A DNA stretch of 64,000 bases from an uncultured Candidatus Binatia bacterium (GCA_965242525.1 OZ251459.1:1609214-1673213); one strand, 5' to 3'; shown: positions 2,677 to 24,269, counted from the first letter of the stretch. Numbers and translations: made by a program. The notes: generated by a model from the letters alone, not told the origin.

Positions 2677-3681
2677 TCAGCGGTCCGAAGGGGGCCGCGC
2701 GCTGTCCGGGTCGGCGCTCGACCGGACCAGGGCCTCGACGCAAGAAGCGGTGTCGAGCATGGCGCACCCGAACCCGACGCTGGGTGGCGCCGGCGGCAGG
2801 GGTCCCTGCCAGTAGCGGTGCTGCGGCCAGCTTCCGTCGGAGCGTTGCCGGCCCAGGATCCGCTCCAGCGTGGCCCACAGCTCTTCGCCCTCCGGCGGGG
2901 CGCCCAGCACGTGCAGCGCGGAAAGGGCGCGGGCGGTGCGGAGGGTGTCGCCGTAGCCGCCGTCCGCGCCGCGGCGGGCGCGGATCCGGTCCGCGAGCCG
3001 GTCGCCCATGTCCCGGAACGCGGGCACGCCCCGCTGCCGGGCGCGGGCCACCGCGTCGTAGAGGTCCATGGCGTCGGGGTAGTAATGGGACGTCCCCTCG
3101 AAGTTCCCCTCGGTGACCAGGCCGGCGAGCCACGCCGCGGCCTGCGCGCCCAACTCGTTCCGGCCCTGTATGGCGAGGTAGCCCACCACGTTGGCGTTCA
3201 CCACGCTGTCCGGGACGTTGCCTTCGCCGGGCGGGGCGAGCCAGGTCCGGAACCTTCCCCTGTCGTCCCGGGCCGCGGACACGAGTCCCAAGTTCTGTCC
3301 GAACAGCACCCAGGGGTGCCACAGGATCGCCAGGGAGCAGACGCTGAGGCTGTCCAGGTCCCGCGGAAGCCGCGGCCAGTAGCGCCACGCGCCCGGATGG
3401 CTCATGGACCGGACGATGAACTCCCCGGACCGGTCCCGGACCGCCCGGGAGCGGGGGTCGTCGCAGACCTCCAGGGTGAGCGCGCCGAGAGCGGCCACGA
3501 AGGGGGGATGCTCCTCGTTGGACGGGCCTTGGAGGTCCAGGCTCGGGTAGCTCCACGAGGTCCATGCCCCGTCGCCGCGGATGGAGGCATGGAGGAAACC
3601 GAGGCCCCGGTCCACCGCGCCGCGCACCGCCTCCCGGAGGTGCGCCGGGACGGCGCCGTCGTTGTAGGATGAATGCTGCAT
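2677..3681 (-). CDS. Prenyltransferase / squalene-hopene-cyclase repeat (alpha/alpha-toroid) protein
   Basis: QW-type repeats RQRSDGSWPQH and RRGADGGYGDT are present, there are no LanC-type Cys/His motifs, and GC3 is high. The start was placed at MQHSSY because the longer ORF (to 3753) runs into the MITE cluster. Confidence 0.5.
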   Translation of the reverse strand: MQHSSYNDGAVPAHLREAVRGAVDRGLGFLHASIRGDGAWTSWSYPSLDLQGPSNEEHPPFVAALGALTLEVCDDPRSRAVRDRSGEFIVRSMSHPGAWRYWPRLPRDLDSLSVCSLAILWHPWVLFGQNLGLVSAARDDRGRFRTWLAPPGEGNVPDSVVNANVVGYLAIQGRNELGAQAAAWLAGLVTEGNFEGTSHYYPDAMDLYDAVARARQRGVPAFRDMGDRLADRIRARRGADGGYGDTLRTARALSALHVLGAPPEGEELWATLERILGRQRSDGSWPQHRYWQGPLPPAPPSVGFGCAMLDTASCVEALVRSSADPDSARPPSDR

Positions 3682-3699
3682 TGCAAGAGTTCCCTCTCC

Positions 3700-4080
3700 C
3701 TGTGGGGGCGCTTCAGGAATTCGTGTGGGTTGCGACACTTCCCATCCCGTCATCCCCGCGAAAGCCCCGTCTCGTCATTCCCGCGAAAGCGGGAATCCAT
3801 CCACTTTCCTCGCTCTTGTTGTAAAAACCTCTCATACAGGGCGCTATGGGGTTTGCTCGCAGGGTCTGGATTCCCGCCCCCGCTTCCGCGAGGACATGCT
3901 TTCGCGGGAATGACGGCGTGGGCGTCTGTGGAGCAATGACGGCGTGCCCCCTGTCGCTCCCCCTTTCCCTCTTGCCTTGCCCACACGAAAGCCGGAAGAG
4001 CCCCCTATGGGAAAGCGCGTCCTTCGACTTCGCTTCGCTCAGGACGAACGGGGTTCGTAGTTCAGGGTTTCCAAATCCGG
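3700..4080. repeat. MITE cluster containing family 2 (TIR CCGTCATTCCCGCGAAAGCGGGAATCCATC) and a partial family 1 copy (GCGTCCTTCGACTTCGCTTCGCTCAGGACGAACGG)
   Basis: Palindromic GTCATTCCCGCGAAAGC / GCTTTCGCGGGAATGAC arms are present, and the same units recur at about 11.2, 24.3, 25.1, 29.2, 42.3 and 45.9 kb. Confidence 0.8.
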
Positions 4081-4238: not shown

Positions 4239-4325
4239 GGTCTTCCGGCCGTGGTGGCGTCCCGCCCGGTCGGAACCCGGGCGCGCGCCTCCGGCGCCGG
4301 CGGGCATCCCGGAGCATTGACGCAC

Positions 4326-5228
4326 GTGTCCCTGTTCTACAACAAACTTTTCCGGGAGGAAGCCGTCGCCCGTCGGGCGAGCGGGGACCCACTGGACGAA
4401 CGGCTCCAGGTCACGGCCCGGCACGAGTGGATGGTGCTGGCGGGGCTCGGCTTGGCGCTCCTGCTGCTGCTCGTCTGGGGGGTCTTCGGAAGCGTGGAGC
4501 GCAGCCTTTCGGTCAAGGCCGTGCTGGTCCAGCCGGGCGAGCGCTACGCGGTGCTGTCACCCGTGTCCGGCAACGTGGTCGAACTCCTGGCCGAGGTCGG
4601 AGACACCCTCCAGGCCGGACAGGGCATCGCCCGGGTCCGTCTCCCGGAAGCCGAGCGCCAAGTCCGGATCACCCGGAGGATCCTGGACGCCGTCCGGGAC
4701 GGGACGGGAGGCGCCGCAACCGCCGAGATCCGGGCGGCGCTGCTCACCGCGGCGCGGGCCGAGGTCGAAGCCGTCGAGTCCCGCGCCGCGGAATCCATCG
4801 TGGCCCGGCGCGAGGGCCGGCTCGTGGCGCATCGCCTGGTCCCGGGCCAGCCGGTGCGCACCGGCGAGACCGTGGCCCAGGTCCGGGGCAGTTCCGATGA
4901 GCCGTGGCAGGCGCTGGCCTTCGTGTCGGCGCGGGACGCCGGGAAACTCGAAGCGGGCATGGAGGCGGAGGTGCGGGTGGCGCTGCCCGGGCGGCCGGGG
5001 ACCAGCCGGTTGGAAGCCCGGGTCCTGGAGGTGTCGCCCCGGACCGTGGCCGCCCCGCAATGGCTTGCGGACCTGGGCCTTGCCGCGCCCGCGCCGGCGC
5101 ACCTGCTGCGGCTGGTCCTGAGCGACCGGCCGCGCCTGCCGCTCGCCGACGGCGCCGGCGGACACGTGCGGATCGTGCTGGGGAACCGGTCCCCTGCGGC
5201 CCTGCTGCTGGCCAACACCGACCTCTGA
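4326..5228 (+). CDS. HlyD-family secretion adaptor of an NHLM/NHLP-type bacteriocin export system
   Basis: GTG start followed by [51 protein letters not shown] (N-terminal TM) and then a coiled-coil/beta-barrel-like region. The gene immediately precedes the C39-ABC gene. Confidence 0.75.
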
Positions 5229-5268: not shown

Positions 5269-7482
5269 TTGAACGCGACGCCGAAGCGAGGGCGCGCTGC
5301 GCCGGAGCGGCGCCGGGCGCGCACGCCCCTGATGCTGCAACTCACCGAGACCGAGTGCGGGGCGGTGTGCCTCGGCATCGTGCTTGCGCACTTCGGGCGC
5401 TGGGTATCCGTCGAGGAGTTGCGGGAAACCTGCTCGGTGGGCCGGGACGGGTGCTCCGCGGCCGACATCTTCCGCGCGGCGCAGCGGTACGGCCTGGAGG
5501 CCCAGGGATGGCGCAGGCAGCCGAAGCACCTCCGCGGCATGCCGTTGCCCATGATCATCTTCTGGGAGTTCAACCATTTCGTGGTGCTGGAAGGCTTCCG
5601 CGGGGACCGGTTCCTGATCAACGACCCGGGCAGCGGCCACCGGACGGTCAGCGCGGAAGAGTTCGACCGGGCGTTCACGGGCGTGACGCTGACGCTCCGA
5701 CCGAAGCCCGAGTTCCGTCCGGGCGGCGTCCGCCCCGGTCTCCTGCACCGGATCCTGCCGTGGCTGCGCGACGTGAAGGAGCCGCTCGCGTTCGCCATGT
5801 GCTGCGGGCTGCTGCTGACCCTGCCCTCCCTCGCCATGCCGTTCCTGGTGGGCCTGTTCGTGGACTTCGTGCTGTCCGGGCGCGAACCGTCCTGGAGCGC
5901 GGCGCTGACCGGGAGCCTCGTGGGGGCCGCGGCCCTGCTCTACCTCCTGACTTGGCTCCGGGAACGCTGCCTCCGGCTGCTCTCCGTGCGCCTCGCCATC
6001 GACCACGGCGCGCGCTTCATGGAGCGGCTGTTCCGGCTTCCCATGGGGTTCTTCACCCACCGGCTGTCCGGCGACCTGACCTCCCGGATACAGCTCCTCG
6101 ACACGGTCTCGAACGTGGCCGCGCACCACCTGGCCGGCATCTCCATCGAGATCGTCACCAGCATGGCGTTCCTTGGGCTCATGCTGGCGTACGACCCGCT
6201 GCTCTGCGCCGTGGTGGTGGGACTGGGCGCGCTCAGCGCGGTGGCCATGCGCGTCCTGGCCCGGGTCCGGGTGGACGAGAACCGCAGGCTCAGGCGCGAG
6301 CAGGGCATGCTGTACGGCATCGGCATGTTCGGGGCCGGCAAGATCGACGCCTTGCAGGCGTCCGCCGCGGAGGACGACTTCTTCTCCCGCTGGACGGGAT
6401 ACCAGGCGCGGGAACTGGCCGCCCGGCAACGGTTCACCGAGCTCGGCCACCTCAACGCGGCCCTGCCCCTGCTGTTCCTGATCGCGGGCAACGCCGCGGT
6501 GCTGGGCATCGGCGGCTGGCGGGTGATGGCGGGCGACCTGACGGTGGGCATGCTGACGGCCTTCTACATGGCGGCGGTGAACTTCCTGCAGCCCATAGGA
6601 CGGTTCATCCAGTTCGCCGACATGTTCCAGATGCTGGAGGCGGACCTGCAGCGCCTCGACGACGTGTTCGACGCGTCCGAGGACCGCACCTTCCATCCGG
6701 CGGCGCCCTCTCCCCAGGGGGAGGAGGGGGAAGTCTCGACGTTGGCCGGGCGGCTGCGTCTGAAAGGCCGGGTCGAGCTGCGCAACGTCACCTTCGGCTA
6801 CCAGAAGAACCGCGAACCCCTGATCGAGGACTTCAACCTGACCATCGAGCCGGGCCAGCGCGTGGCCGTGGTCGGCCCCAGCGGCTCCGGCAAGTCCACG
6901 CTCTCGGCGCTGGTGGCCGGCCTCCAGCAACCGTGGTCCGGGGAGATCCTCATCGACAGGCACCCGCGCAGCGCCATCCCGCGGGAGGTGCTGACCAGTT
7001 CCGTGTCCCTCGTGGACCAGCACATCTTCCTGTTCGGGGGCACCGTGCGCGAGAACCTGACCATGTGGATCCCCGAGGTGCCGGACCAGATCCTGGTGGC
7101 GGCCGCCCAGGACGCGGCCATCCACGCGGAGATCATCTCCCGGCCCCTGGGGTACGACGCGCCGGTGGACGAGGGAGGACGCAACTTCAGCGGCGGCCAG
7201 CGGCAGCGGCTGGAGATCGCCCGGGCCCTGGTCAACAACCCGTCGGTCCTGATCCTGGACGAGGCCACCTGCTCCCTCGACACCATCACCGAGGTGCGCA
7301 TCGACGACGCCCTGCGGCGCCGGGGATGCACCTGCCTCATCGTGGCCCATCGGCTGAGCACCATCCGTGACTGCGACCTGATCGTGGTCCTCGACCAAGG
7401 GCGCGAGGTGCAGCGCGGCGCCCACGAGGAGTTGATGCGGGACACGGACGGACTGTACCGCCAACTCGTGGAGTCGTCTTGA
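5269..7482 (+). CDS. Peptidase C39 domain / permease / ATPase ABC exporter (NHLM bacteriocin system)
   Basis: The N-terminus LQLTETECGAVCLGIVLAHFGRW carries the C39 catalytic Cys, followed by 6 TM segments and an NBD with GPSGSGKST, FSGGQRQRLEIARAL and ILDEAT. An alternative start is MLQL at about 5332. Confidence 0.9.
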   Translation: MNATPKRGRAAPERRRARTPLMLQLTETECGAVCLGIVLAHFGRWVSVEELRETCSVGRDGCSAADIFRAAQRYGLEAQGWRRQPKHLRGMPLPMIIFWEFNHFVVLEGFRGDRFLINDPGSGHRTVSAEEFDRAFTGVTLTLRPKPEFRPGGVRPGLLHRILPWLRDVKEPLAFAMCCGLLLTLPSLAMPFLVGLFVDFVLSGREPSWSAALTGSLVGAAALLYLLTWLRERCLRLLSVRLAIDHGARFMERLFRLPMGFFTHRLSGDLTSRIQLLDTVSNVAAHHLAGISIEIVTSMAFLGLMLAYDPLLCAVVVGLGALSAVAMRVLARVRVDENRRLRREQGMLYGIGMFGAGKIDALQASAAEDDFFSRWTGYQARELAARQRFTELGHLNAALPLLFLIAGNAAVLGIGGWRVMAGDLTVGMLTAFYMAAVNFLQPIGRFIQFADMFQMLEADLQRLDDVFDASEDRTFHPAAPSPQGEEGEVSTLAGRLRLKGRVELRNVTFGYQKNREPLIEDFNLTIEPGQRVAVVGPSGSGKSTLSALVAGLQQPWSGEILIDRHPRSAIPREVLTSSVSLVDQHIFLFGGTVRENLTMWIPEVPDQILVAAAQDAAIHAEIISRPLGYDAPVDEGGRNFSGGQRQRLEIARALVNNPSVLILDEATCSLDTITEVRIDDALRRRGCTCLIVAHRLSTIRDCDLIVVLDQGREVQRGAHEELMRDTDGLYRQLVESS

Positions 7483-10418
7483 ACGGGAAGCACCGAACCG
7501 GGGACGTGCGGAAGCCGGCGCCGGGCAGCCTCCGGGAAATCGCCCTCGCGCACGGCGAGCCGTTCATCGGAGGCGGCAACCGCCCCATCCGCCTGTCCGA
7601 CCCCGAGACCCTGTGGTACGTGGTCAAGGGCACCATGGACGTATTCACCGCCCAACATTCCGCGGACAGGGAGACGTCGGACTTCAAGCATCTCCTGCGC
7701 GCGGGCGCCGGCCGGTGGATCTTCAGCATCGCCAACGAGGAGGACGCCTCCACGTCCCTGTACATCGCCAAGGGGCTCCCCGACACCGAGCTCCGCTGCG
7801 TCCCCCGGACCGCCCTGACCGGACCCGGGACGGCCGGACTCCTGGCCGAACAGGCGGACGCCTGGATTGCCGACCTCGCCGCGGCCATCGCCCGGGAAGT
7901 GGAGCCGCGCCCGCGCCCCCAGCGCTTCCTGACCCCGGGCGAGGACGTCGAGGCCGCGGCCGAGAACGTGCTGTCCACCCGCCGCGGCGTGGTCTGGGTC
8001 TCGACCCAGGTGGGGAACGCGGCTTTCCTCGACACCGGCGAGCCTACCGGCAGCGGTCCGGGCTTCATCCCCGTCTCCGCGGGTAGCTGGATACGGCTGT
8101 TCCACCCCTGCCGACTGGCCGTCACCACGTCCGCGGCCCTCGAAGCCGACGGCCTGCTGTTCTCCGCCCTGGCCGAGTTCCATCGACTGGCGCTGTCCGC
8201 GGAGGAAATCAACCGGCGCCTGGTGCTCGTGGACATGGCCAACTTGCAGCGGGCCCACGTCCAGCGCCGGAGCCGGAGCGAAGAGCGCGCCCGGGACAGC
8301 CTGCTCGGCGTGCTGAACGAGCGGCGGTCCCCCGCGGGGGACCGCGGGACCGGCCTGTTGCGCGCCCTGGAGCAGGTGGGCCGCCACGAAGGCATCCGGT
8401 TCCGCACTCCGCCCCGCCGGCGGGGAACGGACGAGGACGCCCCCGACCTGACGGAGATCCAGCGCGTGTCGGGGGTCCGCGCGCGCAGGGTCAAGCTCGC
8501 CGTCGAAGACCATTGGTGGCGCGGCGACAGCGGCGCGATGCTGGCGTTCCGGCGCGAGTCCGGGAACCCGGTGGCGCTGGTCCCGGGCGTGTGGGGCCGT
8601 TACCAGATGATCGACCCGGAGACGGGCCGTTCGGAGCGGGTGGACGAGGGCCTGGCCCGGGACCTCGCTTCCGAGGCGTACTTCTTCTACCGCCCGCTGC
8701 CGCAGGAGGAAACGGTCCGTCCCGGCGCCCTGTTCCGCTTCGCGTTCCGCGGGCTCGGAAAAGACCTGGCGCGCTTCATCCTGGCGGGACTGCTGGTGGG
8801 CCTCATGATGCTGACGCCGCCCATCCTGCTCGGCGCCCTGGTGGACCGCGTGATCCCCAGCGGGTCCGGCTGGCAAGTCCTGGAGCTGTCCCTGTCCCTG
8901 GTCCTGCTGGCGGTCCTCACCGCGCTCCTGCATCTCCTCCAGGGAACCGCCCTGATGCGGCTGGAGGCCGCAGCCGCGGCCCGGGTGGGCGCGGCGCTCT
9001 GGGACCGGCTGCTCGGCCTGCCGCAGCGGTTCTTTCGTCGCTTCTCCTCCGGCGACCTGACCATGCGCACCATGGCCTTCCAGGGACTGCGCGACCAGGT
9101 CTCGGGGGTGGTCGGCAACGCCCTCCTGTCGGTGGTCTTCCTCCTGCCCACCTTCCTGCTGCTGTTCGTCTATGACACCGGGATCGGCTGGCTCGGCCTG
9201 GGGCTGGGACTGTCCTCCCTGGGGGTGACCGCGGCCATCGGCGTCCTCCAGCTACCCCACCAACGGCGCCTGCTCGCCATCTCGAGACGGCTTGCGGGCA
9301 GGCTGGTGCAACTGCTGAACGGCGTCAGCAAGCTGCGGTCCACCGGCTCCGAAGGCATCGGGTTCGCCTTGTGGGCGCAGGACTACCGGGAACAGAAGCA
9401 GACCGAGATGCGGCTCGGCAGGCTGAACGAGCACCTGATCGCCTTCCTGGCGGCCGCGCCCCTGCTGGCCGCGGCCGCGGTGTTCGCCGCGGCCATGCAC
9501 GACGGCCGCGCGGTCCTTCCGGTCGGGGACTTCCTCACCATCTACGCAGCGTTCATGGTGTTCTATTCCGCGGTGGCCAGGCTCGGCGCTTCGTTCTCCG
9601 CGGTGGCCGCGGTCATGCCCGCGTACGAGCAGGTGACCCCGATCCTGGAGTCGAAGCCGGAGACGGGCGCCAAGGGCGAGCCGCCGCCGGAGCTCAGCGG
9701 CGAACTCCACGTGGACCACGTGAACTTCCGCTACACGGAGGACGGTCCCCTGGTCCTGCAGGACGTCTCCATCCACGCACGGGCCGGCGAGTTCGTGGCC
9801 ATCGTGGGGGAATCCGGCGCGGGCAAGAGCACCCTGTTCCGGCTCGCCCTCGGACTCGAGGCGCCGCTGTCGGGGGCCGTTTACTACGACGGGCGCGACC
9901 TCGCGCGACTCAACAAGCGGGCGGTGCGCAGCAGGATCAGCATGGTGGTGCAGGACGTGTCGCTGCACCCCGGCACCGTGCTGGAGAACATCGTCGGAGT
10001 GTCCGGGAACCTCACCGAGGACGACGCCTGGCGGGCCGCCCGCCAGGCCAGCGTGGACGAAGACATCGCCGCCATGCCCATGCAGATGCACACCCCGACC
10101 GGAGACAAGTCCGCGACTTTCTCGGGCGGGCAGATCCAGCGGATCATGCTGGCCGCGGCGCTGGTCCGGGACCCGAGCGTCCTGTTCCTCGACGAGGCCA
10201 CCAACTGGCTCGACAACAAGAGCCAGGCGCAAGTGATGCACAACGTGGCCGAGCTTGCCGTCACCCGGTTCGTGACGGCCCACCGCCTGTCCACCATCCG
10301 CATGGCCAACCGCATCTACGTGCTGCAGGACGGCCGGGTGGTCCAGACCGGAACCTTCGACGAGCTGTTCGAGATCGACGGCCCCTTCCGCAACCTGGTG
10401 CGGCGGCAAATGGCCTGA
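7479..10418 (+). CDS. Second large ABC transporter of the NHLM tripartite system, with an N-terminal non-transporter domain
   Basis: The protein is 979 aa, and the start overlaps the upstream stop (ATGA). The N-terminal ~400 aa are not TMD-like, followed by a TMD (LLVGLMMLTPPILLGALV) and an NBD with GESGAGKST, FSGGQIQRIML and LFLDEAT. Confidence 0.85.
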   Translation: MNGKHRTGDVRKPAPGSLREIALAHGEPFIGGGNRPIRLSDPETLWYVVKGTMDVFTAQHSADRETSDFKHLLRAGAGRWIFSIANEEDASTSLYIAKGLPDTELRCVPRTALTGPGTAGLLAEQADAWIADLAAAIAREVEPRPRPQRFLTPGEDVEAAAENVLSTRRGVVWVSTQVGNAAFLDTGEPTGSGPGFIPVSAGSWIRLFHPCRLAVTTSAALEADGLLFSALAEFHRLALSAEEINRRLVLVDMANLQRAHVQRRSRSEERARDSLLGVLNERRSPAGDRGTGLLRALEQVGRHEGIRFRTPPRRRGTDEDAPDLTEIQRVSGVRARRVKLAVEDHWWRGDSGAMLAFRRESGNPVALVPGVWGRYQMIDPETGRSERVDEGLARDLASEAYFFYRPLPQEETVRPGALFRFAFRGLGKDLARFILAGLLVGLMMLTPPILLGALVDRVIPSGSGWQVLELSLSLVLLAVLTALLHLLQGTALMRLEAAAAARVGAALWDRLLGLPQRFFRRFSSGDLTMRTMAFQGLRDQVSGVVGNALLSVVFLLPTFLLLFVYDTGIGWLGLGLGLSSLGVTAAIGVLQLPHQRRLLAISRRLAGRLVQLLNGVSKLRSTGSEGIGFALWAQDYREQKQTEMRLGRLNEHLIAFLAAAPLLAAAAVFAAAMHDGRAVLPVGDFLTIYAAFMVFYSAVARLGASFSAVAAVMPAYEQVTPILESKPETGAKGEPPPELSGELHVDHVNFRYTEDGPLVLQDVSIHARAGEFVAIVGESGAGKSTLFRLALGLEAPLSGAVYYDGRDLARLNKRAVRSRISMVVQDVSLHPGTVLENIVGVSGNLTEDDAWRAARQASVDEDIAAMPMQMHTPTGDKSATFSGGQIQRIMLAAALVRDPSVLFLDEATNWLDNKSQAQVMHNVAELAVTRFVTAHRLSTIRMANRIYVLQDGRVVQTGTFDELFEIDGPFRNLVRRQMA

Positions 10419-10499: not shown

Positions 10500-10787
10500 T
10501 TACCAATCGTCGACGATGCTCCGCCCGCTCGGGTTTGGCTGCCATCCGTACACGCCGCCAGCGACCGCCTGCAGGTCGCCGTCGCCCAGCCGGCTGTCGG
10601 GGGGCAGGACCAGATGCGCAGCCTCGCCGCTCTCTTCGTGGACCTCGATGGACAGGGACGCCGGAATGGTGACGCCCAATTCCTGCTCCACCGCCCCCTT
10701 CGGGTCGCTGAGAAGCCGGGCGCGGAACTCCGCGTCCTCCATCGCCTTGCCCACGATCTTCGCCTGCATTTCCTTCGCCGTTTCCAT
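10500..10787 (-). CDS. NHLP (nitrile hydratase leader peptide) family RiPP precursor A
   Basis: Full sequence METAKEMQAKIVGKAMEDAEFRARLLSDPKGAVEQELGVTIPASLSIEVHEESGEAAHLVLPPDSRLGDGDLQAVAGG|VYGWQPNPSGRSIVDDW. It carries a classic NHLP leader, a double-Gly C39 cleavage site, a 17-aa core and a GGAGG SD. Confidence 0.9.
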   Translation of the reverse strand: METAKEMQAKIVGKAMEDAEFRARLLSDPKGAVEQELGVTIPASLSIEVHEESGEAAHLVLPPDSRLGDGDLQAVAGGVYGWQPNPSGRSIVDDW

Positions 10788-10823
10788 GGCTCGTCCCTCC
10801 TCGACAGACTGATAACTACGTGC

Positions 10824-10853
10824 AATTTACGATACCGCTTCATCCAATGTCAA
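10824..10853 (-). promoter_or_regulatory. Sigma70-like promoter for precursor A (TTGACA-N18-TAAATT on minus strand)
   Basis: The reverse complement reads TTGACATTGGATGAAGCGGTATCGTAAATT; a homologous block lies upstream of precursor D. Confidence 0.45.
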
Positions 10854-10984
10854 GGCCATATGCACGAAAACCAGTGTTATCAGGGATTTTCGTGGAACCC
10901 GGCCTTCCGTTCATCCACCTGCCCGATTCCATCGCCATCCGCTCCAAGCTCGACCGCCGAACCACCGGGCGTCCGCCTGGCCGG

Positions 10985-11090
10985 AGTCGCCGCCATGCCC
11001 ATGCAGATGCCCACCGCGACCGGAGGCAAGTCCGCGACTTTCTCGGGCGGGCAGGTCCAGCGGATCATGCTGCCGCAGCGCTGGTCCGGG
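10985..11090 (+). pseudogene. Duplicated ~105-bp fragment of the ABC gene signature region (AAMPMQMPTATGGKSATFSGGQVQRIML)
   Basis: The fragment is about 90% identical to 10070-10175 of the 7479-10418 gene, is out of context, and ends in a MITE-TIR-like CCGTCATTCC. Confidence 0.8.
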
Positions 11091-11149
11091 GCCCCGTCAT
11101 TCCTGCAAGCGTGCCCTCGTCCGCAGGCACACACATCCGGAAGGTCTGA

Positions 11150-11625
11150 ACAATGTCATACCTCCCTTGGGAATGCGCGTCCTTCGACTTCGCTACGCTA
11201 CGCTCAGGACGAACGGAATGGTTGTTCAGGGTTTCCTTGAAAACCTCTGAACAATCGAAACATCCGGGATGGATTCCCGATTCCCTCACCCTGACGCCCC
11301 TGTCCCCGTTCGTCCTGAGCGTAGCGAAGCGAAAACCTCCGTTCGTCCTGAGCGTAGCGTAGCGAAGTCGAAGGACGCGCTCATGCCCCCTGTCTGTCCC
11401 GATTGTTCAGAGGTTCCCTCGGTCATTCCCGCGAAAGCATGTCCTCGCGGAAGCGGGGGCGGGAATCTCGTCGTACAAGCCTCGATGGATGGATTCCCGC
11501 TTTCGCGGGAATGACGGAGGTGCGTGCCCGCGAACGGGGTGCGTGCCCGCGAACGGGGTGCGTGCCTGCAGGAATGACGGAGGTGGCCGCCGCGGGAACG
11601 ACGGGGTGTGCTTTTGGGCGTTTCG
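11150..11625. repeat. MITE cluster (families 1 and 2)
   Basis: Contains GCGTCCTTCGACTTCGCTACGCTACGCTCAGGACGAACGG, GAACAATCGAAACATCCGGGATGGATTCCC, GTCATTCCCGCGAAAGCATGTCCTCGCGGAAGCGGGGGCGGGAATC and a GATGGATTCCCGCTTTCGCGGGAATGACGG arm. Confidence 0.85.
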
Positions 11626-11627
11626 GG

Positions 11628-12749
11628 CTAGTCCCGGGCGAGGGAACAGATCAGGCCGGCGTATGCCTTGGCGGCGACCCCGGCGTCCGTGACCGTGAGC
11701 TTGACGTGGTTGACCCCCTTGTAAACGAGGAACACGCCCCGACGGTCGTACATCCTGTCGAGCGCGCACCACTGGAGCAGCCCCTGCGCCTTCGCCGCCA
11801 GGCACCAGCCGCGGAGCGCCAGCCGCTCCACCACCGGCCGCCAGGCGCTCCGCCCCGTGGTCAGCCAACTGTCCATGGCGTCGTCGCCCCACGACCCCGC
11901 ATGGTACAGTTCCAGGCCGATCCTGGGCAGCAGCCCCGAGTCGGCCACGTCCACCGACAGCCGGAAGCGGGGCAACACGTCCCCGAGGTCGGCCAGCAAC
12001 TCCGTGGCAGGGCGAACCGCAGCGCTCCGGCCCAACCGCTCCAGCACCCCGGCAACCTCGTCGCGCCCGATCTCCTGAACCACCAGCCGCACCGCCCGCG
12101 GCGTCCGGCTCGGCAACGCTCCGACATGGGCGACCCTGGCGTCCGGCGGCAGCGCCGCCAGCGCCCGCGCCACCCACCGCAGCGCCTCGTCCTCATCGGT
12201 CCAGCCCACCGCGCCGGCCAGCGCCGCGATCGGCAAGGGCTGCGGACGGTCATGGGGCCCGGATTCCTCCGTGCGCCGTATCTTCAAGAAGACCCCCGGA
12301 TCCGGGCGCGGGTCGGCCGGCGCCTCGGCCAGGTCGTATTCGAGCATGGTTCCGGCGATGCAAGCGTGCAACTCGGAGTCGGCCTGCCCGATCCGGGCGA
12401 GGTACCGGGACAGCGCCGCCGCCGCCGAGCCCGGACGGGCGGCTTCGCCCCTGCGGATGAAGTGCCGCGCGAGCGGGCTCCCCGACCTCACCACCACGAA
12501 CAGGTCCGCCGCCGGCGTCTCCTCGCCGAGCCGGAACTCGCAACCGAGGAACGCCGACGACCCGGCGTCCGGCAGCTCCGCGGCGCAGGCCGTCAACCGG
12601 TCCCATCCGAGGCCGTCGAGCAAGGAACGCGGTATCAGCGGGCGGAGCCCCGCGAGCACCGCCTCCGGCGCGCGGCGCGCATCGTGGGTCGATGCAGCAA
12701 ACGCGGGCTCGGCAGCCTCAACCAAGGGAAACGGGCTCGACGCCACCAT
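11628..12749 (-). CDS. Hypothetical protein (373 aa) nested between NHLP precursors; candidate RiPP maturation/immunity protein
   Basis: The ORF is long with strong GC3 bias, starts 37 bp downstream of precursor B on the same strand with a GGAGG SD, and has no recognisable motifs. The competing frames are Gly/Arg-rich. Confidence 0.5.
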   Translation of the reverse strand: MVASSPFPLVEAAEPAFAASTHDARRAPEAVLAGLRPLIPRSLLDGLGWDRLTACAAELPDAGSSAFLGCEFRLGEETPAADLFVVVRSGSPLARHFIRRGEAARPGSAAAALSRYLARIGQADSELHACIAGTMLEYDLAEAPADPRPDPGVFLKIRRTEESGPHDRPQPLPIAALAGAVGWTDEDEALRWVARALAALPPDARVAHVGALPSRTPRAVRLVVQEIGRDEVAGVLERLGRSAAVRPATELLADLGDVLPRFRLSVDVADSGLLPRIGLELYHAGSWGDDAMDSWLTTGRSAWRPVVERLALRGWCLAAKAQGLLQWCALDRMYDRRGVFLVYKGVNHVKLTVTDAGVAAKAYAGLICSLARD

Positions 12750-12785
12750 CGCGCCTCCGCGGGAGCGCTGGGAACCCCGGCGGGG

Positions 12786-13067
12786 TCACCAGTCCAGAAC
12801 GCCCTTCCCCTGCTTGAAGTCCTCCCAGCTATATCCTCCCGCAACCGCTTGCAGGTCGCCTTCGTTCAGCTTGCTGTCGGGGGGCAGGACCAGATGCACA
12901 ACCTCGGCGCTCTGTTCGTGGACCTCGATGGACAGGGACGCCGGAATGGTGACACCCAACTCCTGCCCGATGGCTCCCTTCGGATCGCCGAGCAGCCGGG
13001 CGCGGAACTCCGCGTCCCCGGCCGCCTTGCCCACGATCTTCGCCTCCAATTCCTTTGCCGTTTCCAT
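12786..13067 (-). CDS. NHLP family RiPP precursor B
   Basis: Full sequence METAKELEAKIVGKAAGDAEFRARLLGDPKGAIGQELGVTIPASLSIEVHEQSAEVVHLVLPPDSKLNEGDLQAVAGG|YSWEDFKQGKGVLDW. A GGAAGGAG SD is present, and the ORF-track N-terminal extension was discarded. Confidence 0.85.
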   Translation of the reverse strand: METAKELEAKIVGKAAGDAEFRARLLGDPKGAIGQELGVTIPASLSIEVHEQSAEVVHLVLPPDSKLNEGDLQAVAGGYSWEDFKQGKGVLDW

Positions 13068-13119
13068 TGGTTTGCTCCTTCCTGGAGAGAGTGACGGCCA
13101 AGCGCGACCCACGGCGGGA

Positions 13120-13410
13120 TCACCAGTCAAGCAATCCTCCGCCTTTCGTGGCTTCGTGGTAGTCATCCCAGGTAAGCCCGCCGGCGACCCCCTGCAGGTC
13201 TTTTTCGCTCAGCTTGCTGTCCGGGGGCAGAACGAGATGCGCGGTCGCGGCGCTATCCTGGTGGACTTGGATGGACATGGACGCCGGAATGGGGACGCCC
13301 AACTCCTGCCCGATGGCTCCCTTCGGGTCACCGAGCAGCCGGGAGCGGAACTCCGCGTCCTCGGTCGCCCTGCCCACGATCTTCCCCCGCATTTCCTTCA
13401 CGCTTTCCAT
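13120..13410 (-). CDS. NHLP family RiPP precursor C
   Basis: Full sequence MESVKEMRGKIVGRATEDAEFRSRLLGDPKGAIGQELGVPIPASMSIQVHQDSAATAHLVLPPDSKLSEKDLQGVAGG|LTWDDYHEATKGGGLLDW, with a GGAGGAGG SD. Confidence 0.85.
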   Translation of the reverse strand: MESVKEMRGKIVGRATEDAEFRSRLLGDPKGAIGQELGVPIPASMSIQVHQDSAATAHLVLPPDSKLSEKDLQGVAGGLTWDDYHEATKGGGLLDW

Positions 13411-13510
13411 GTTTCGTTCCTCCTCCATCGAGCGATGGTTGCGCACGCCCCACGTTCACGGGCAACCTGCGATACCGGCTCACCGGATGAAGCGACACGG
13501 TCCGGCGGTA

Positions 13511-13810
13511 CTACCAGTCGGCCACGACATTCCAACTGTCATCCACACGCACACCGTTTTCGTCGTACACCGCGGCGGCGCCGGCGACGGTCTCCATCTC
13601 GCTTTCGCTCAGCCTGCCGTCGGGGGGCAGGACCAGATGCGCAGCCTCGGCGCCCTCTTCGTGGACCTCGATGGACAGGGACGCCGGAATGGTGACGCCC
13701 AATTCCTGCTCCACCGCCCCCTTCGGGTCGCTGAGCAGCCGGGCGCGGAAGTCCGCGTCCTCCATGGCCTTGTCCACGATCCTCGCCTGCATTTCCTTTG
13801 CCGTTTCCAT
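13511..13810 (-). CDS. NHLP family RiPP precursor D (VAGA cleavage-site variant)
   Basis: Full sequence METAKEMQARIVDKAMEDADFRARLLSDPKGAVEQELGVTIPASLSIEVHEEGAEAAHLVLPPDGRLSESEMETVAGA|AAVYDENGVRVDDSWNVVADW. The leader is about 85% identical to precursor A. Confidence 0.85.
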   Translation of the reverse strand: METAKEMQARIVDKAMEDADFRARLLSDPKGAVEQELGVTIPASLSIEVHEEGAEAAHLVLPPDGRLSESEMETVAGAAAVYDENGVRVDDSWNVVADW

Positions 13811-13993: not shown

Positions 13994-15358
13994 TCACCCA
14001 TGCTCCGGCCCGGAGGACGGCGGCGCCGCGCAAGCGACCCCCCGGATGACCAGGAGCTTGAGGAACTCGTCCGCCGACCCTGCCGGAGTTCCCTCGGGGA
14101 CCGTTTCCCGGAAAGCCCCCACGCGCACGGTCCCTCCCCGCAGGAGCGAGGCCAGCAACTCCATGCACCGGCCGTCGAAGGTCCAGCGGTAGCCGTGGGC
14201 CTCCAGCACCGCCTCCCCGTCGGCGTTCCGCTCCAGGGTCGCGTGCCGGGCGCCCCGGAGCCGGACCCCGTAACTCTCCCAGTCCGGAGAGTTCCAGGGG
14301 TCGATGCAGGGGCCAAGGCTCGTCCGGGGGCTCTCGGACCACGTGGAGCGCAGGTGGTCGCGGAACTTCCGTCCGACGTCCCCTTGCAGCTCCCGGAGGA
14401 CCAGCTCCCTGAGCGCCGTGTAGTGGGCGGCGCCGGTCCGGTCCGTGGGGTGGGGGAGGTCCCGGCGGAAGGTCTCGTGGCGAGCGAGCCTGCCGGAGAG
14501 CCACTCCATGAATTCCAGCCCGGTGACCGGGAGGACGCTGCAGGTGAGGTGCAGGCTGCCCGAGCCGCCCTGCCCTCCTTCGTCCTGGGTACGGGCGTCG
14601 TGCCACCACCCCCGCGGGACGTAGAGGACGTCGCCCGACCGGACCACCTCGCTCCACACCGGCTCCCGAGGCGGCTCCACGTTGGGTTCCGAGTCCCGAC
14701 CCAGGGGAAAGCGCCGCGTTTCGCCGTAGAGCCGCCAACGCTTTGCGCCGGCCGCCTGCAGCACGAACACGTCGTGGTCGTCCCAGTGCACGGAAAAGCC
14801 CCGGGTGGCCGTCCAGGAGGCGTAGAGGTTGATCCCGGTGTAGCCGCCCAGGGTCTCCTCGATTGCCTCGGCCACGGGGCGGAGAGGGGGATGGATTTCG
14901 TTGACGCCGTGCATGGCCACGCTGGCGCCCGTACGGAGGAAGGTCGCCAGCCGCGCGTCGTCGATGCAGGTTTCCTCCGGGCCTCCCCTTCTCCCCCTCC
15001 ATCCGTGGCCGAACTGCGGCGTCGTGTAGTAGTTCGGGGCAACCGTCTTGCCGTCCTGCACCAGGTGCATCCGGTTGCGCCACGCGCCCGACGACAGCAG
15101 CCCGTTGAGCGCTTCCCAGGTGCAAAGGGACGCGAAACGCGGACCCTTCGCCCGGAACAGCACCGGCCGTTTGTCCCGGTAGCGGGTGTCCAGGAACTCC
15201 TGGGTGGCGAGGGGCCGGACCAGGCTCTCGAACCCGGACTCCGGTCCGTACGGCGCCGCATCGGCCGCCAGCACCTCCACCGGGCCGGCGCCGGGGGGGA
15301 CGGTCCGTTCGGGGCGCGTTTCCGCGCCGGGGCCTCCCGGCGAGGCGGGGCCGGTCAT
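13994..15358 (-). CDS. Cupin_4 / JmjC-domain Fe(II)/2-oxoglutarate-type oxygenase (RoxA/YcfD-like)
   Basis: HxD motif in VHWDDHDVFVLQAAGAKRWRLY with a distal His in GSLHLTCSV. The start was set at MTGPASPGG, which overlaps the upstream ORF's stop (ATGA), and the Arg/Pro-rich N-terminal extension was rejected. Confidence 0.7.
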   Translation of the reverse strand: MTGPASPGGPGAETRPERTVPPGAGPVEVLAADAAPYGPESGFESLVRPLATQEFLDTRYRDKRPVLFRAKGPRFASLCTWEALNGLLSSGAWRNRMHLVQDGKTVAPNYYTTPQFGHGWRGRRGGPEETCIDDARLATFLRTGASVAMHGVNEIHPPLRPVAEAIEETLGGYTGINLYASWTATRGFSVHWDDHDVFVLQAAGAKRWRLYGETRRFPLGRDSEPNVEPPREPVWSEVVRSGDVLYVPRGWWHDARTQDEGGQGGSGSLHLTCSVLPVTGLEFMEWLSGRLARHETFRRDLPHPTDRTGAAHYTALRELVLRELQGDVGRKFRDHLRSTWSESPRTSLGPCIDPWNSPDWESYGVRLRGARHATLERNADGEAVLEAHGYRWTFDGRCMELLASLLRGGTVRVGAFRETVPEGTPAGSADEFLKLLVIRGVACAAPPSSGPEHG

Positions 15359-15696
15359 GCTTCGCCCTTCTTTCCCGAGGCCTTCGCGGGTTCCCGTTCC
15401 TCCACCGCGGCGTCCGGGGCGGTCGGGTCCGGGACGATCTTGACGCTGATGCGCGGAACGGGCCTGGAGGCGCCCCCGGACAGGACCCGAAGGTAATCCG
15501 CTTCCTGCTCGAAGACCCTGCGGGAGGCGAGGCACACGATGGGCGTCCCGTCCCGCAGCAGACTCCCCATGTCCGCGGCGCCCGGGAGCGGCCGGCGGTC
15601 GATTTCCCGGTCGTCGGCGCCCGGGGGACACGCGGACGCTTCGGGGACGGAGGCGCCGCCTGCGTCCCCCGCGGGCGGGCGTTGGTCCGTGCTCAT
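15355..15696 (-). CDS. Small hypothetical protein translationally coupled to the cupin_4 oxygenase
   Basis: The ORF is 113 aa (or 72 aa from MGSLLRDG), its stop overlaps the JmjC ATG, and it has no known motif. Confidence 0.4.
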   Translation of the reverse strand: MSTDQRPPAGDAGGASVPEASACPPGADDREIDRRPLPGAADMGSLLRDGTPIVCLASRRVFEQEADYLRVLSGGASRPVPRISVKIVPDPTAPDAAVEEREPAKASGKKGEA

Positions 15697-15872: not shown

Positions 15873-16631
15873 TCAGGAGCGGAGGCGCGCCCGGCTTCCG
15901 CGCGCGCCGTACTTGGCCACGAGGGGGAACAGGTCGTAAACGATCCTGGCCTGGGGGCAGTGGCGCCGCACCTCCGGTTCGTAGGCGCTGTTCATGTCCA
16001 TGGCCACCGCCTCGATGGCCTTGCAGCCGTCGGCGCCCAGGCTCTCGAAGAACGGCCGCACGTCTTCGCGGCTGCGCCCCTTGCCCACCCACAACACGCG
16101 CCGGGTCACCGCATCGGTAATCACCGTGGCCAGCTTCTGCACGGTTTGCAGCGCGAACTCGTCCATCACCAGCCGGGTCACCCCGCGCAAGTCCATGGGC
16201 CCCACCGCGCGCTGCAGGTACCCCCTGTCCAAGTCCCTCACCGCGTCCCACCCCAGCCGGTAGTGCTGCGCCACCTGCTTGATGGTCATCACCGTGCACA
16301 AATGCGCCACGTTGTCGGCCAGCCGTTGCGTCACCCGCGCATAGCGGGCCAGCCAGCTCAACCGTTCCAGCTTGGGACCGCACCGCGGACACGCCAGCCG
16401 CCGACGCCGCAGCACCAGGGTCGTGGGCGCGTCGAAGATGGGCAGGTCGCGCACCCGACGCCGCTCGTACCCGTGGACGGCCGCCACTTCCCGGCCGCAG
16501 CCGACGCAGACCCCGGGCCGTCCCGCCACCGGGTCGAGGTCGATCTCGACCATGCCGCGGTTGCGCCTGGCCGCCACCGCTTCGTAGCCTTCCCAGTCTC
16601 CGAGAACTTCGTCGATTCCGATCTTCGCCAA
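15873..16631 (-). mobile_element. ISL3-family transposase gene, 3'-truncated (pseudogene/remnant)
   Basis: A zf-ISL3 region (CVGCG...RDLPIF...RRRRLACPRCG) is followed by a DDE_Tnp_ISL3 start (LVMDEFAL...AVAMDMNSAYEPEVRRHCPQARIVYDLF). The coding region stops after about 250 aa against an expected ~420, and no TIRs were identified. Confidence 0.75.
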
Positions 16632-19883: not shown

Positions 19884-19890
19884 CGGAGGT

Positions 19891-23846: not shown

Positions 23847-24260
23847 CTAGCCTTCGTCGAACCCGCGGCGGAAGCGGCGGCGCCAGTAGGCGTCCAGGGC
23901 CTCGTACAGGCCCGGGTCGGCCTTCCTGTTCTTGACGAACCAGTCCGCCAGGATGTCGATGCTGTGATCCATGTCCAGCACCGGATTGGCGGCGAACAGC
24001 ACCATCCCGGACAGGGCCTTGCGGCTGGCATTCTTCTCCAGCGCGTTGCCCAGCGCCGCCAGGAACACCTCCCGCTCGCTGCCCCGGAGCCCATGGTAGA
24101 GGCTCAGCAGCACCGAAGCGGCGCCGTAGCTCTCCACGTCCCTGGCCGTCTCCGGGTCGATCCCCAAGGCGATGCGGACGATGAGCCTCTCGTAGCCCCT
24201 TATGTCGTAGTAGTCGTACAGACCCGCTGACCCTCTACCGCTTCGGACCGCGCTCGACAC
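23847..24260 (-). CDS. Hypothetical protein
   Basis: The 137-aa ORF has balanced composition and GC3 bias, and the opposite-strand alternative is Arg/Pro/Ala-rich. Confidence 0.4.
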   Translation of the reverse strand: MSSAVRSGRGSAGLYDYYDIRGYERLIVRIALGIDPETARDVESYGAASVLLSLYHGLRGSEREVFLAALGNALEKNASRKALSGMVLFAANPVLDMDHSIDILADWFVKNRKADPGLYEALDAYWRRRFRRGFDEG

Positions 24261-24269
24261 GAACTCCCC

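What the first reader, a model, noticed from the sequence alone, without database searches (positions are those of the whole stretch)
10500..13810. Four paralogous precursors share conserved NHLP leaders but have hypervariable 15-21-aa cores that all start near an aromatic residue and end in Asp-Trp
The cores after the GG/GA cleavage site are VYGWQPNPSGRSIVDDW, YSWEDFKQGKGVLDW, LTWDDYHEATKGGGLLDW and AAVYDENGVRVDDSWNVVADW. The leaders are about 80-90% identical while the cores are unrelated, except for a Tyr/Trp within the first 4 residues, several Asp/Glu, and an invariant C-terminal D-W. This pattern suggests a leader-guided enzyme recognising a terminal DW, for example by a Trp/Tyr cross-link, Asp or Trp hydroxylation, or C-terminal modification. 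The cores lack Cys, Ser and Thr, which excludes lanthipeptide or thiazole chemistry.
Basis: seen in the sequence. Interest (0 to 1): 0.75.

Follow-up and report, generated by a model that had tools for sequence, protein, structure and literature searches.

The report
Trp-ended peptides with prenyltransferase and cyclase
Four secreted-peptide precursor genes that all end in tryptophan sit beside two unannotated enzymes, a prenyltransferase-fold protein and a terpene cyclase, so the locus most likely makes peptides carrying a cyclised terpene on the last tryptophan, a kind of product first described in 2024.

Summary
The four NHLP precursor genes are real (minus strand: 10500-10787, 12786-13067, 13120-13410, 13511-13810), and all four cores end in Asp-Trp. 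Two details in the finding are wrong. The cores do contain Ser and Thr, and the leaders are 63-82% identical, not 80-90%.

Across 53 unique cores with the same leader type from related loci, the conserved feature is the C-terminal Trp (48 of 53). The residue before it is D in 19 and N in 18, so DW is not invariant.

- A 358-aa ORF next to the export operon (2677-3753) is a single-domain class II terpene cyclase that keeps the catalytic Asp motif.

The JmjC/cupin_4 gene is accessory. In related loci it occurs only alongside a second prenyltransferase paralog and a second leader type, and the window has neither.

Best reading: the leader guides prenylation of the terminal Trp, the prenyl chain is cyclised, and a C39 ABC transporter cleaves and exports the peptide. 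This is an unfused relative of the NctPC/steromaze system (Hubrich 2024). The chemistry is inferred, not shown.

The parts
2677..3753 (-). Single-domain class II terpene cyclase ('unk358'), divergent from the export operon
   Evidence: The window protein has no Pfam hit. The AF2 model has pLDDT 91.6. Foldseek against PDB gives drimenol synthase, single-domain SHC-like 8pak and MstE, with TM 0.66-0.73. The family profile hits SHC at 8e-25 and drimenol synthase at 4e-20. The family motif PpDlDdt aligns to the SHC catalytic motif DVDDTA. The window reads D132-L-D134-S, and D134 is invariant. The gene co-occurs with the PT in L002, L004, L005, L007-L012, L017, L045, L047 and L048. The true start may be the internal Met near 3681.
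4251..5228 (+). HlyD-type adaptor of the NHLP export system
   Evidence: Pfam HlyD_3. TIGR03794 scores 86 bits, below its cut-off of 156.
5269..7482 (+). NHLP export ABC transporter with an N-terminal C39 peptidase (leader cleavage after GG/GA)
   Evidence: TIGR03796 scores 894.7 bits against a cut-off of 853.3. Peptidase_C39, ABC_membrane and ABC_tran domains are present.
7479..10418 (+). Second NHLP export ABC permease/ATPase subunit
   Evidence: TIGR03797 scores 748.2 bits against a cut-off of 709.4.
10500..10787 (-). Precursor A1, core VYGWQPNPSGRSIVDDW
   Evidence: TIGR03793 scores 73.2 bits. Sequence.
10824..10853 (-). Sigma-70-like promoter upstream of A1 (TTGACA-18-TAAATT). A related sequence lies upstream of A4.
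   Evidence: The upstream regions of A1 and A4 are 86% identical.
11628..12749 (-). ABBA-fold aromatic prenyltransferase-like protein (PT1), 36 nt downstream of A2; the proposed Trp-modifying enzyme
12786..13067 (-). Precursor A2, core YSWEDFKQGKGVLDW
   Evidence: TIGR03793 scores 74 bits. Orthologous cores occur in L007, L012, L014 and L016.
13120..13410 (-). Precursor A3, core LTWDDYHEATKGGGLLDW
   Evidence: TIGR03793 scores 65.6 bits. Ortholog ITWDDYHEATKGGGLLDW in L012.
13511..13810 (-). Precursor A4, core AAVYDENGVRVDDSWNVVADW
   Evidence: TIGR03793 scores 73.7 bits. Orthologs A(R/T)YD(S/A)NGAR(V/I)DTDWIITADW in L009-L011.
13994..15361 (-). JmjC_2/cupin_4 Fe(II)/2-oxoglutarate oxygenase; accessory, possibly a remnant of a second module
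   Evidence: PF08007 scores 86 bits against a cut-off of 22. It aligns to MINA53, NO66 and YcfD with HxD...H kept: VHWDD and SLHLT. It co-varies with PT2 and type-2 leaders, not with D-W cores. The start at 15361 is the first ATG after an Arg/Pro-rich stretch of the 592-aa ORF, so it is uncertain.
15873..16631 (-). ISL3-family transposase fragment bordering the cluster
   Evidence: Zn_ribbon_ISL3, HTH_Tnp_ISL3 and a partial DDE_Tnp_ISL3 (profile positions 1-91 of 240).

Best explanation
The locus is a RiPP gene cluster. Its shared chemical step is most likely prenylation of the C-terminal tryptophan of NHLP-led precursors, followed by cyclisation of the prenyl chain.

Proposed sequence of events:
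1. A4, A3, A2 and the prenyltransferase gene are transcribed together. A1 is transcribed from its own copy of the same promoter region.
2. The conserved 78-residue leader brings each precursor to the 373-aa ABBA-fold enzyme. That enzyme transfers an isoprenyl group (probably C15 or C20) from a diphosphate donor made by primary metabolism onto the indole of the last residue.
3. The single-domain class II cyclase protonates the distal double bond through the central Asp of its D-L-D-S motif and folds the chain into a polycyclic terpenoid.
4. The C39 peptidase domain of the ABC transporter cuts after GG/GA. The HlyD/ABC1/ABC2 system exports 15-21-residue peptides that carry a bulky hydrophobic cap at an otherwise acidic C-terminus.
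5. The JmjC oxygenase is an optional tailoring enzyme.

Shown here:
- the precursors and their family membership;
- the export and cleavage genes;
- the two enzyme folds and the conserved Asp motif;
- the strong co-occurrence of the PT with Trp-ended cores.

Inferred: that prenyl transfer happens at all, which residue and which indole atom is modified, the chain length, that the cyclase acts on the peptide-bound chain, leader dependence, and the order of steps.
For: - Precursors: TIGR03793 above cut-off for all four.
- Export and cleavage: TIGR03796 and TIGR03797 above cut-off, with a C39 domain.
- PT conserved residues: invariant or near-invariant polar residues sit on predicted barrel strands with i/i+2 spacing (E71/R73, E137, R221, D267, R276/E280, H348/K350, K361/Y363). 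This pattern is expected for a diphosphate-binding barrel.
- Cyclase: AF2 pLDDT 91.6. Foldseek matches drimenol synthase, 8pak and MstE. The profile hits SHC at 8e-25, with the DxDD region aligned to the catalytic motif. DxD[S/D] occurs in 105 of 120 homologs.
- Association: NHLP precursors are adjacent in nearly all of about 46 loci carrying a PT homolog. Of 95 unique cores, 91 contain Trp. Of 53 cores with the window's leader type, 48 end in Trp. A 44%-identical branch (L045) again combines PTs, cyclases and 12 precursors, most of them ending in Cys-Trp.
- Precedent: NctPC is an ABBA PT domain fused to a MstE-like cyclase domain. It geranylgeranylates a RiPP Trp and then cyclises the chain (PMC13290415 sections 2.3-2.4, citing Hubrich et al., Chem 2024). 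PalQ prenylates the C-terminal Trp of an NHLP precursor (PMC10853753). MppC is a leader-dependent ABBA PT (PMC12715784).
Against: - There is no biochemical or mass-spectrometric evidence for any modification.
- The PT family has no detectable sequence similarity to any characterised prenyltransferase. Inactive ABBA proteins exist, PatF being a reported example (my own recollection, not checked here).
- No polyprenyl diphosphate synthase gene lies in the window.
- The cyclase gene is 8 kb from the PT, on the other side of the export operon. It was not seen within the fetched flanks of several loci, partly because the flanks end too early.
- The window cyclase reads DLDS rather than DxDD.
Confidence: 0.65

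Rival explanations
1. One reading: the JmjC/cupin_4 oxygenase is the leader-guided enzyme that recognises the terminal Asp-Trp and hydroxylates Asp or Trp, or makes a cross-link.
For: - The gene lies directly upstream of A4.
- It is a bona fide JmjC_2 protein with the HxD...H iron ligands kept.
- Its relatives (MINA53, NO66, YcfD) hydroxylate side chains of protein substrates.
- D or N before the terminal W is conserved. JmjC enzymes such as FIH hydroxylate Asn and Asp (general knowledge).
Against: - It is absent from L004-L008 and L019, which encode many D-W and N-W cores.
- Wherever it is present it is accompanied by PT2 paralogs and type-2 leaders, often directly downstream of a type-2 precursor (L012, L015, L047).
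- The window lacks both partners and has an ISL3 fragment at that border. The cupin here may therefore be a leftover of a second module.
Confidence: 0.12
2. Linear prenylation only. The PT lipidates the terminal Trp, as PalQ or ComQ do. The cyclase-like protein acts on something else, for example a free terpenoid, or serves as an immunity or binding protein.
For: - The cyclase is not adjacent to the PT.
- It is missing from the fetched flanks of several loci.
- Some homologs carry an NHLP-like N-terminal domain, which could point to another role, such as being exported itself.
Against: - Synteny is conserved: the cyclase is divergent from HlyD in the window and in L004, L005, L007, L008 and L009.
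- It is again present in the distant L045, L047 and L048 clusters.
- The catalytic Asp is conserved.
- A fused PT-cyclase precedent exists (PMC13290415).
Confidence: 0.15
3. The ABBA-fold protein is catalytically inert, acting as a scaffold or leader-binding chaperone in the way PatF is an inactive PT. The peptides would then be unmodified, or only hydroxylated, double-glycine bacteriocins whose terminal Trp matters for target binding.
For: There is no sequence similarity to active PTs. The export system alone can process NHLP peptides.
Against: - The family is large: 3393 representatives at E<=1e-3. About 25 positions are invariant, many of them charged residues on barrel strands.
- PT paralogs track distinct leader types. 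That is the pattern expected of enzymes with cognate substrates.
Confidence: 0.06
4. The terminal Trp is halogenated, as in the sponge srp proteusins where SrpI brominates the C-terminal Trp.
For: The srp precursors are also NHLP peptides that end in Trp, and they occur across symbiont phyla (PMC10858898; bioRxiv 10.1101/2023.06.09.544420).
Against: None of the ORFs scanned in the window (all those with coding-type composition) is a flavin-dependent halogenase or a YcaO. The cores have no Cys, unlike the LCCCW core. A trans-acting halogenase encoded elsewhere in the genome is not excluded.
Confidence: 0.03

Closest known systems
NctPC / steromaze-type terpene-RiPP hybrids (Hubrich et al., Chem 2024, 10:3224; known to me only through PMC13290415 and PMC13647313)
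   Same: An ABBA-fold prenyltransferase and a MstE-like single-domain class II cyclase act on a Trp of a ribosomal precursor. My recollection is that proteusin/NHLP and Nif11 precursors were among the predicted substrates; I could not read the paper to confirm this.
   Different: - Here the two activities are separate genes 8 kb apart, not a fusion.
- The target Trp is the last residue, with D or N before it.
- There are 4 (elsewhere up to 14 or more) hypervariable precursors per locus.
- Sequence homology to NctPC was not tested.
- The product is unknown.
PalQ/PalX of Paenibacillus alvei (PMC10853753)
   Same: An NHLP-type precursor whose conserved C-terminal Trp is the prenyl acceptor. The enzyme is strictly selective for the terminal position.
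   Different: PalQ has the trans-isoprenyl-diphosphate-synthase fold, not ABBA. That system has one precursor, a histidine kinase neighbour (quorum-sensing-like), no cyclase and no NHLM ABC export set.
MppC, a lanthipeptide prenyltransferase (PMC12715784), and cyanobactin F-family PTs (PagF, KgpF)
   Same: ABBA fold. MppC needs the long Nif11 leader and geranylates a Trp indole.
   Different: - MppC acts on a lanthionine-cyclised core at an internal Trp.
- Cyanobactin PTs are leader-independent.
srp proteusins of sponge symbionts (SrpE/SrpI; PMC10858898)
   Same: NHLP precursors that end in Trp, a leader-dependent modification of that Trp, and spread across unrelated symbiont phyla.
   Different: srp uses a flavin brominase and a YcaO acting on an LCCCW core. 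None of these is present here.
Drimentine-type indole sesquiterpenoid logic (own knowledge, not checked here)
   Same: The Trp indole is farnesylated and the chain is then cyclised by a class II-type cyclase.
   Different: The substrate there is a cyclodipeptide made by a cyclodipeptide synthase, and the enzymes belong to other families.

Membership tests
NHLP leader peptide RiPP precursors (TIGR03793) | Leader domain scores above the curated cut-off | tested here: met
   65.6-74.0 bits against a cut-off of 50.9 for all four. PF02979 NHase_alpha is also above its cut-off.
NHLP leader peptide RiPP precursors (TIGR03793) | Double-glycine-type cleavage site between leader and core, processed by a C39 peptidase | tested here: inconclusive
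   VAGG (A1-A3) or VAGA (A4) lies at the conservation boundary, and a C39 ABC transporter is adjacent. Cleavage itself is not testable here.
NHLM bacteriocin export system | TIGR03796 (peptidase/permease/ATPase), TIGR03797 (permease/ATPase) and TIGR03794 (HlyD) | tested here: met
   TIGR03796 scores 894.7 against 853.3 and TIGR03797 scores 748.2 against 709.4. The HlyD scores only 86 against 156.2, so that third component is below its cut-off.
ABBA (alpha-beta-beta-alpha barrel) aromatic prenyltransferases | Ten-stranded antiparallel barrel built of repeated alpha-beta-beta-alpha units | tested here: met
ABBA (alpha-beta-beta-alpha barrel) aromatic prenyltransferases | Sequence membership in a described PT family (DMATS, Orf2/NphB or cyanobactin F-family) | tested here: not met
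   No Pfam or NCBIfam hit at E<=0.01. No PDB sequence hit with the family profile at E<=10 other than chance PARP14 matches.
ABBA (alpha-beta-beta-alpha barrel) aromatic prenyltransferases | Basic and Tyr residues lining the barrel that bind the prenyl diphosphate; prenyl transfer activity | not testable with these tools
   Invariant R, K, H, Y, E and D residues lie on predicted strands. Their 3-D positions and the activity could not be examined.
Class II terpene cyclases (SHC, drimenol synthase, MstE type) | Alpha/alpha-barrel fold with sequence similarity to known cyclases | tested here: met
   Foldseek TM 0.66-0.73, E down to 2e-13. The profile hits SHC at 8e-25, drimenol synthase at 4e-20 over the full length, and MstE at 7e-4. 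The window protein alone has no Pfam hit, but many homologs carry PF13243.
Class II terpene cyclases (SHC, drimenol synthase, MstE type) | DxDD general-acid motif | tested here: inconclusive
   The window reads D132-L-D134-S135. The family shows DxDS in 63 and DxDD in 42 of 120 homologs. The central Asp is invariant and aligns to the SHC DVDDTA motif. The last Asp is replaced; I recall DxDTT-type variants in drimenyl synthases (own knowledge).
Fused PT-cyclase RiPP maturases (NctPC/ChrPC) | Prenyltransferase and cyclase domains in one polypeptide | tested here: not met
   They are separate genes at 11628-12749 and 2677-3753. None of the 120 listed PT homologs, the 150 listed representatives or the 120 listed cyclase homologs has fusion length.
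Fused PT-cyclase RiPP maturases (NctPC/ChrPC) | Sequence homology of the PT to the NctPC P domain | not tested
   The NctPC sequence and the primary paper were not available.
PalQ/ComQ-type Trp prenyltransferases | Trans-isoprenyl diphosphate synthase fold with a FARM motif | tested here: not met
   The fold is ABBA, not all-alpha.
srp proteusins | Cys-rich core (LCCCW), YcaO cyclodehydratase and flavin-dependent brominase | tested here: not met
   No Cys in any window core and none in the 53 type-1 cores. None of the scanned ORFs in the window is a YcaO or a halogenase.
JmjC/cupin_4 ribosomal-oxygenase-like hydroxylases | PF08007 above cut-off and the HxD...H iron triad | tested here: met
   86.1 bits against 22. 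The alignment to MINA53 keeps H-W-D (against H-Y-D) and the distal His. The substrate is unknown.

The most novel reading that the evidence does not exclude
The 373-aa protein founds a large, unnamed lineage of ABBA prenyltransferases (thousands of 50%-identity clusters). Together with a free-standing class II cyclase, it caps the C-terminal Trp of dozens of hypervariable secreted peptides with a polycyclic terpenoid. The same peptide 'library' (identical cores) is shared by horizontal transfer among Alpha- and Gammaproteobacteria, Binatia, Acidobacteriota and Spirochaetia living in one habitat, probably marine sponges. A second PT paralog plus the JmjC oxygenase forms a parallel module for a second leader type.
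Probability: 0.35. Interest if true: 0.8.

Novelty: new variant of a known kind. Interest (0 to 1): 0.6.

Why it matters
- If the inference holds, it links the two known ways of lipidating RiPP tryptophans (C-terminal Trp prenylation on NHLP precursors, and prenylation followed by class II cyclisation) in an unfused two-enzyme form.
- It would give a function to a very large protein family with no annotation: 3393 representative clusters and no Pfam model.
- It shows a natural combinatorial design. One leader and one terminal anchor residue are kept, everything between is free to vary, and individual cores are conserved across phyla.
- Enzymes that accept almost any sequence ahead of a terminal Trp would be useful for site-specific lipidation of peptides and proteins.
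- It also corrects the annotation-driven focus on the only enzyme with a Pfam name, the cupin.

Tried and rejected
- Sequence-based annotation of the 373-aa and 358-aa ORFs (Pfam, NCBIfam, PDB sequences) gave nothing for the window proteins. Only structure prediction identified them.
- An exact look-up of the window PT in the contig collection found no record.
- Papers mentioning both NHLP and JmjC: none.
- The primary paper on NctPC/steromaze and the 2026 prenyltransferase review are not held. Direct comparison with NctPC was therefore impossible, and that precedent rests on secondary citations.
- The AFDB Foldseek library was unavailable.
- A 2026 preprint on sponge halogenated peptides was read and found irrelevant, because it excludes RiPPs.
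- An attempt to confirm from the literature that the MAG bin names are sponge-derived failed. The sponge habitat therefore rests on my own recollection of those MAG sets.
- Cupin as the main enzyme: rejected on co-occurrence.
- Halogenation, azole or lanthionine chemistry: rejected because no such enzymes were found and the cores have no Cys.
- A polyprenyl synthase in the window as donor supplier: not found among the ORFs scanned.

Full report
**1. What is in the sequence**

Four short ORFs lie on the minus strand: A1 10500-10787, A2 12786-13067, A3 13120-13410 and A4 13511-13810. Each is preceded by a GGAGG-like ribosome-binding site. All four exceed the curated cut-off of TIGR03793 (NHLP leader RiPP precursor) and of PF02979.

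DNA similarity between A1 and A4 (86%) runs from about 150 bp upstream through the leader and stops at 10553, the leader/core border. The conserved-leader, variable-core contrast is therefore sharp at nucleotide level.

Three statements in the finding need correcting:
- The cores do contain Ser (A1, A2, A4) and Thr (A3).
- Leader identities are 63-82%, not 80-90%.
- The early aromatic residue is not a family feature: 20 of 53 cores have Tyr or Trp in the first four residues.

**2. The surroundings**

Upstream on the plus strand lies the canonical NHLP export set:
- a HlyD-type adaptor (4251-5228);
- a C39-peptidase ABC transporter (5269-7482; TIGR03796, 894.7 bits against 853.3);
- a second ABC subunit (7479-10418; TIGR03797, 748.2 against 709.4).

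Between A1 and A2 lies a 373-aa ORF (11628-12749) that starts 36 nt after the A2 stop codon. It has no Pfam, NCBIfam or PDB-sequence match.

Upstream of A4 lies a JmjC_2/cupin_4 gene (13994-15361). It keeps the HxD...H iron ligands when aligned to MINA53, NO66 and YcfD. It is bordered by an ISL3 transposase fragment.

Divergent from the HlyD gene is a 358-aa ORF (2677-3753), also without a Pfam match.

The remaining ORFs with coding-type composition across the window match housekeeping or defence families, or match nothing. No halogenase, YcaO, lanthionine synthetase or polyprenyl synthase was found among them.

**3. The two unannotated proteins**

*The 373-aa protein.* An alignment of 40 homologs gave an AlphaFold model with pLDDT 85.3, built of five alpha-alpha-beta-beta units.
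- The Foldseek top 38 PDB matches are all ABBA aromatic prenyltransferases.
- Invariant charged and aromatic residues fall on the predicted barrel strands with i/i+2 spacing. A diphosphate-binding barrel would show this pattern, but I could not inspect the coordinates.

*The 358-aa protein.* The model has pLDDT 91.6.
- It matches drimenol synthase, the single-domain squalene-hopene-cyclase-like proteins 8pak/8paj, and the meroterpenoid cyclase MstE, with TM 0.66-0.73.
- Its family profile hits SHC at 8e-25 and drimenol synthase at 4e-20 over the full length.
- The family motif P-D-L-D-D-T aligns to the catalytic DVDDTA motif of SHC.
- The window protein reads D-L-D-S. The central Asp is invariant, and DxD[S/D] occurs in 105 of 120 homologs.

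**4. Comparative evidence**

The PT family is large: 3393 representatives at E<=1e-3 in a library of 1.84 billion proteins. The 150 best hits are nearly all of stand-alone length (about 180-500 aa), and none has fusion length. None of the listed hits carries a functional name.

A genome scan returned 41 loci, all from metagenome-assembled genomes of many phyla: Alpha- and Gammaproteobacteria, Binatia, Vicinamibacterales, Spirochaetia, Dehalococcoidia/SAR202 and Nitrospinota. PT identity between phyla reaches 66-83%, which implies horizontal transfer. Several bin names match sponge-symbiont MAG sets as I remember them, but I could not verify this.

A leader HMM found 139 NHLP precursors (95 unique cores) within 10 kb of these PT genes, up to 14 or more per locus. 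Of the 95 cores, 91 contain Trp.

Among the 53 unique cores with the window's leader type:
- 48 end in Trp;
- the residue before it is D 19, N 18, H 3, T 2, S 2, G 2, I 1, V 1;
- none contains Cys.

The conserved element is therefore a C-terminal Trp with a preference for Asp or Asn before it, not a fixed DW.

Three of the four window cores have near-identical orthologs in other phyla: YSWEDFKSGKGLLDW in L007, L012 and L016; ITWDDYHEATKGGGLLDW in L012; ATYDANGARIDTDWIITADW in L009-L011. The cores are diverse among paralogs but individually conserved.

A more distant branch (L045, PT 44% identical) combines three PT paralogs, two cyclases and 12 precursors, most of which end in Cys-Trp.

The cyclase is found in L002, L004, L005, L007-L012, L017, L045, L047 and L048. 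It usually sits divergent from the HlyD gene, as in the window. In L006, L015 and L019 the fetched flank ends at that position.

**5. The cupin**

The cupin occurs in L009-L015, L047 and L048, and is absent from L004-L008 and L019. All of these loci encode D-W and N-W cores.

Every cupin locus also holds PT paralogs only 37-44% identical to the window PT. Each also holds precursors with a second leader type (…PDGF.I.VHED..DTSHLVLPP…). Their Trp is usually 1-10 residues from the end (FWDDF, EWMHI, GWR, IWDIPWPD). The cupin often lies directly downstream of such a precursor.

The window has neither the paralog nor the second leader type, and it has a transposase fragment at that edge. The cupin is therefore an accessory enzyme of a parallel module. 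In this window it may be a leftover, or it may have been recruited to the D-W cores. The data do not decide between these.

**6. Mechanism proposed**

Shown:
- precursor identity;
- the export and cleavage genes;
- the two enzyme folds and the Asp motif;
- the tight association of the PT with Trp-ended cores.

Inferred:
1. The leader presents the core to the PT.
2. The PT transfers a C15 or C20 isoprenyl group to the terminal indole.
3. The cyclase then protonates and cyclises the chain.
4. The C39 transporter cleaves after GG/GA and exports the capped peptide.

A chain of at least C15 is suggested only by the presence of a class II cyclase and by the precedent below.

**7. Comparison with what is known**

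- A 2026 review (PMC13290415, sections 2.3-2.4) summarises Hubrich et al. (Chem 2024). NctPC is an ABBA-fold PT domain fused to a MstE-like cyclase domain. It geranylgeranylates a RiPP tryptophan and cyclises the chain. ChrPC does the same with a trans-IDS-like P domain. PMC13647313 names the product steromaze as a terpene-RiPP hybrid with a cyclic isoprenoid.
- PalQ prenylates the conserved C-terminal Trp of the NHLP precursor PalX, but has the isoprenoid-synthase fold (PMC10853753).
- MppC is a leader-dependent ABBA PT acting on a Nif11 lanthipeptide (PMC12715784).
- SrpI brominates the C-terminal Trp of sponge srp proteusins, whose core is LCCCW (PMC10858898).

The present locus works like NctPC but fails its defining architecture, because the genes are separate. 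It shares the terminal-Trp logic of PalQ but has a different fold. It lacks everything that defines srp.

I could not read the primary paper. I therefore cannot say whether unfused clusters of this type were already listed there. If they were, this is only a new member of that kind.

**8. Verdict**

The interpretation points at the wrong enzyme. The best explanation (confidence about 0.65) is a terpene-capped, Trp-terminated RiPP system of the recently described PT-plus-cyclase kind. It appears here in an unfused, multi-precursor form shared across phyla.

Noticed in passing
window 10987-11094 (compare 10066-10174): A 109-bp stretch in the spacer beside precursor A1 is 94% identical to part of the ABC2 transporter gene about 900 bp away. 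It looks like a rearrangement or duplication scar linked to the insertion of A1.
   Followed up: partly
window 11160-11530 and at least 15 other sites (e.g. 4003-4072, 24267-24610, 25323-25555, 27302-27501, 29010-29659, 42277-42440, 45818-46146, 51556-51649, 58606-58672, 62105-62236): The spacer between A1 and the prenyltransferase gene is made of a dispersed intergenic repeat family (40-200 bp units, 82-100% identical, both orientations) that recurs throughout the window.
   Followed up: partly
window 15873-16631; L047 496-1722; L048 5785-6579: An ISL3-family transposase, truncated in the window, lies next to the JmjC gene in three independent loci. This hints that the element moves or breaks this module.
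   Followed up: partly
proteins P0219 and P0222 (homologs of window 2677-3753): Some cyclase homologs carry an N-terminal NHLP-leader-like domain (…HLVLPPKSRFSEEE…) fused to the cyclase. This could dock the enzyme to leader-binding partners or mark it for export. The possibility of a gene-call artefact was not excluded.
   Followed up: no
L045 5745-18566: A distant cluster has three prenyltransferase paralogs, two cyclase-like genes and 12 NHLP precursors. Their cores carry two Cys and mostly end in Cys-Trp (e.g. HVGGTTMCSTPDDVGGTACW), possibly disulfide-bridged variants of the same scheme.
   Followed up: partly
L027, L029-L041 (Nitrospinota and unclassified MAGs), precursor just upstream of the PT homolog: In this branch each locus has a single precursor with an almost invariant core (TQTWQDFANAWNSLNQNS and close variants). 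The Trp is internal and no export genes lie within 10 kb. This is the opposite of the hypervariable multi-copy arrangement.
   Followed up: no
L009-L015, L047, L048: A second precursor class with a distinct leader always accompanies a second PT paralog and the JmjC oxygenase. Its cores often carry W-D-D/H near the end (FWDDF, FWDHI, FWDDW).
   Followed up: partly
window 24000-30000 and 55500-64000: Lower-GC islands (62-64%, against about 70% elsewhere) encode a 1146-aa DUF1156 protein (25597-29037) and a type I restriction-modification pair (HsdR-like 55537-58728; N6_Mtase 62388-63998). These are probably acquired defence islands.
   Followed up: no
window 16719-21252: An AcrB-type RND pump (1101 aa) and a HlyD-like adaptor lie just beyond the transposase fragment. 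RND pump genes also flank the cluster in L002, L006, L008, L015 and L019 at about 33% identity. They could be a self-protection pump or a coincidence.
   Followed up: no
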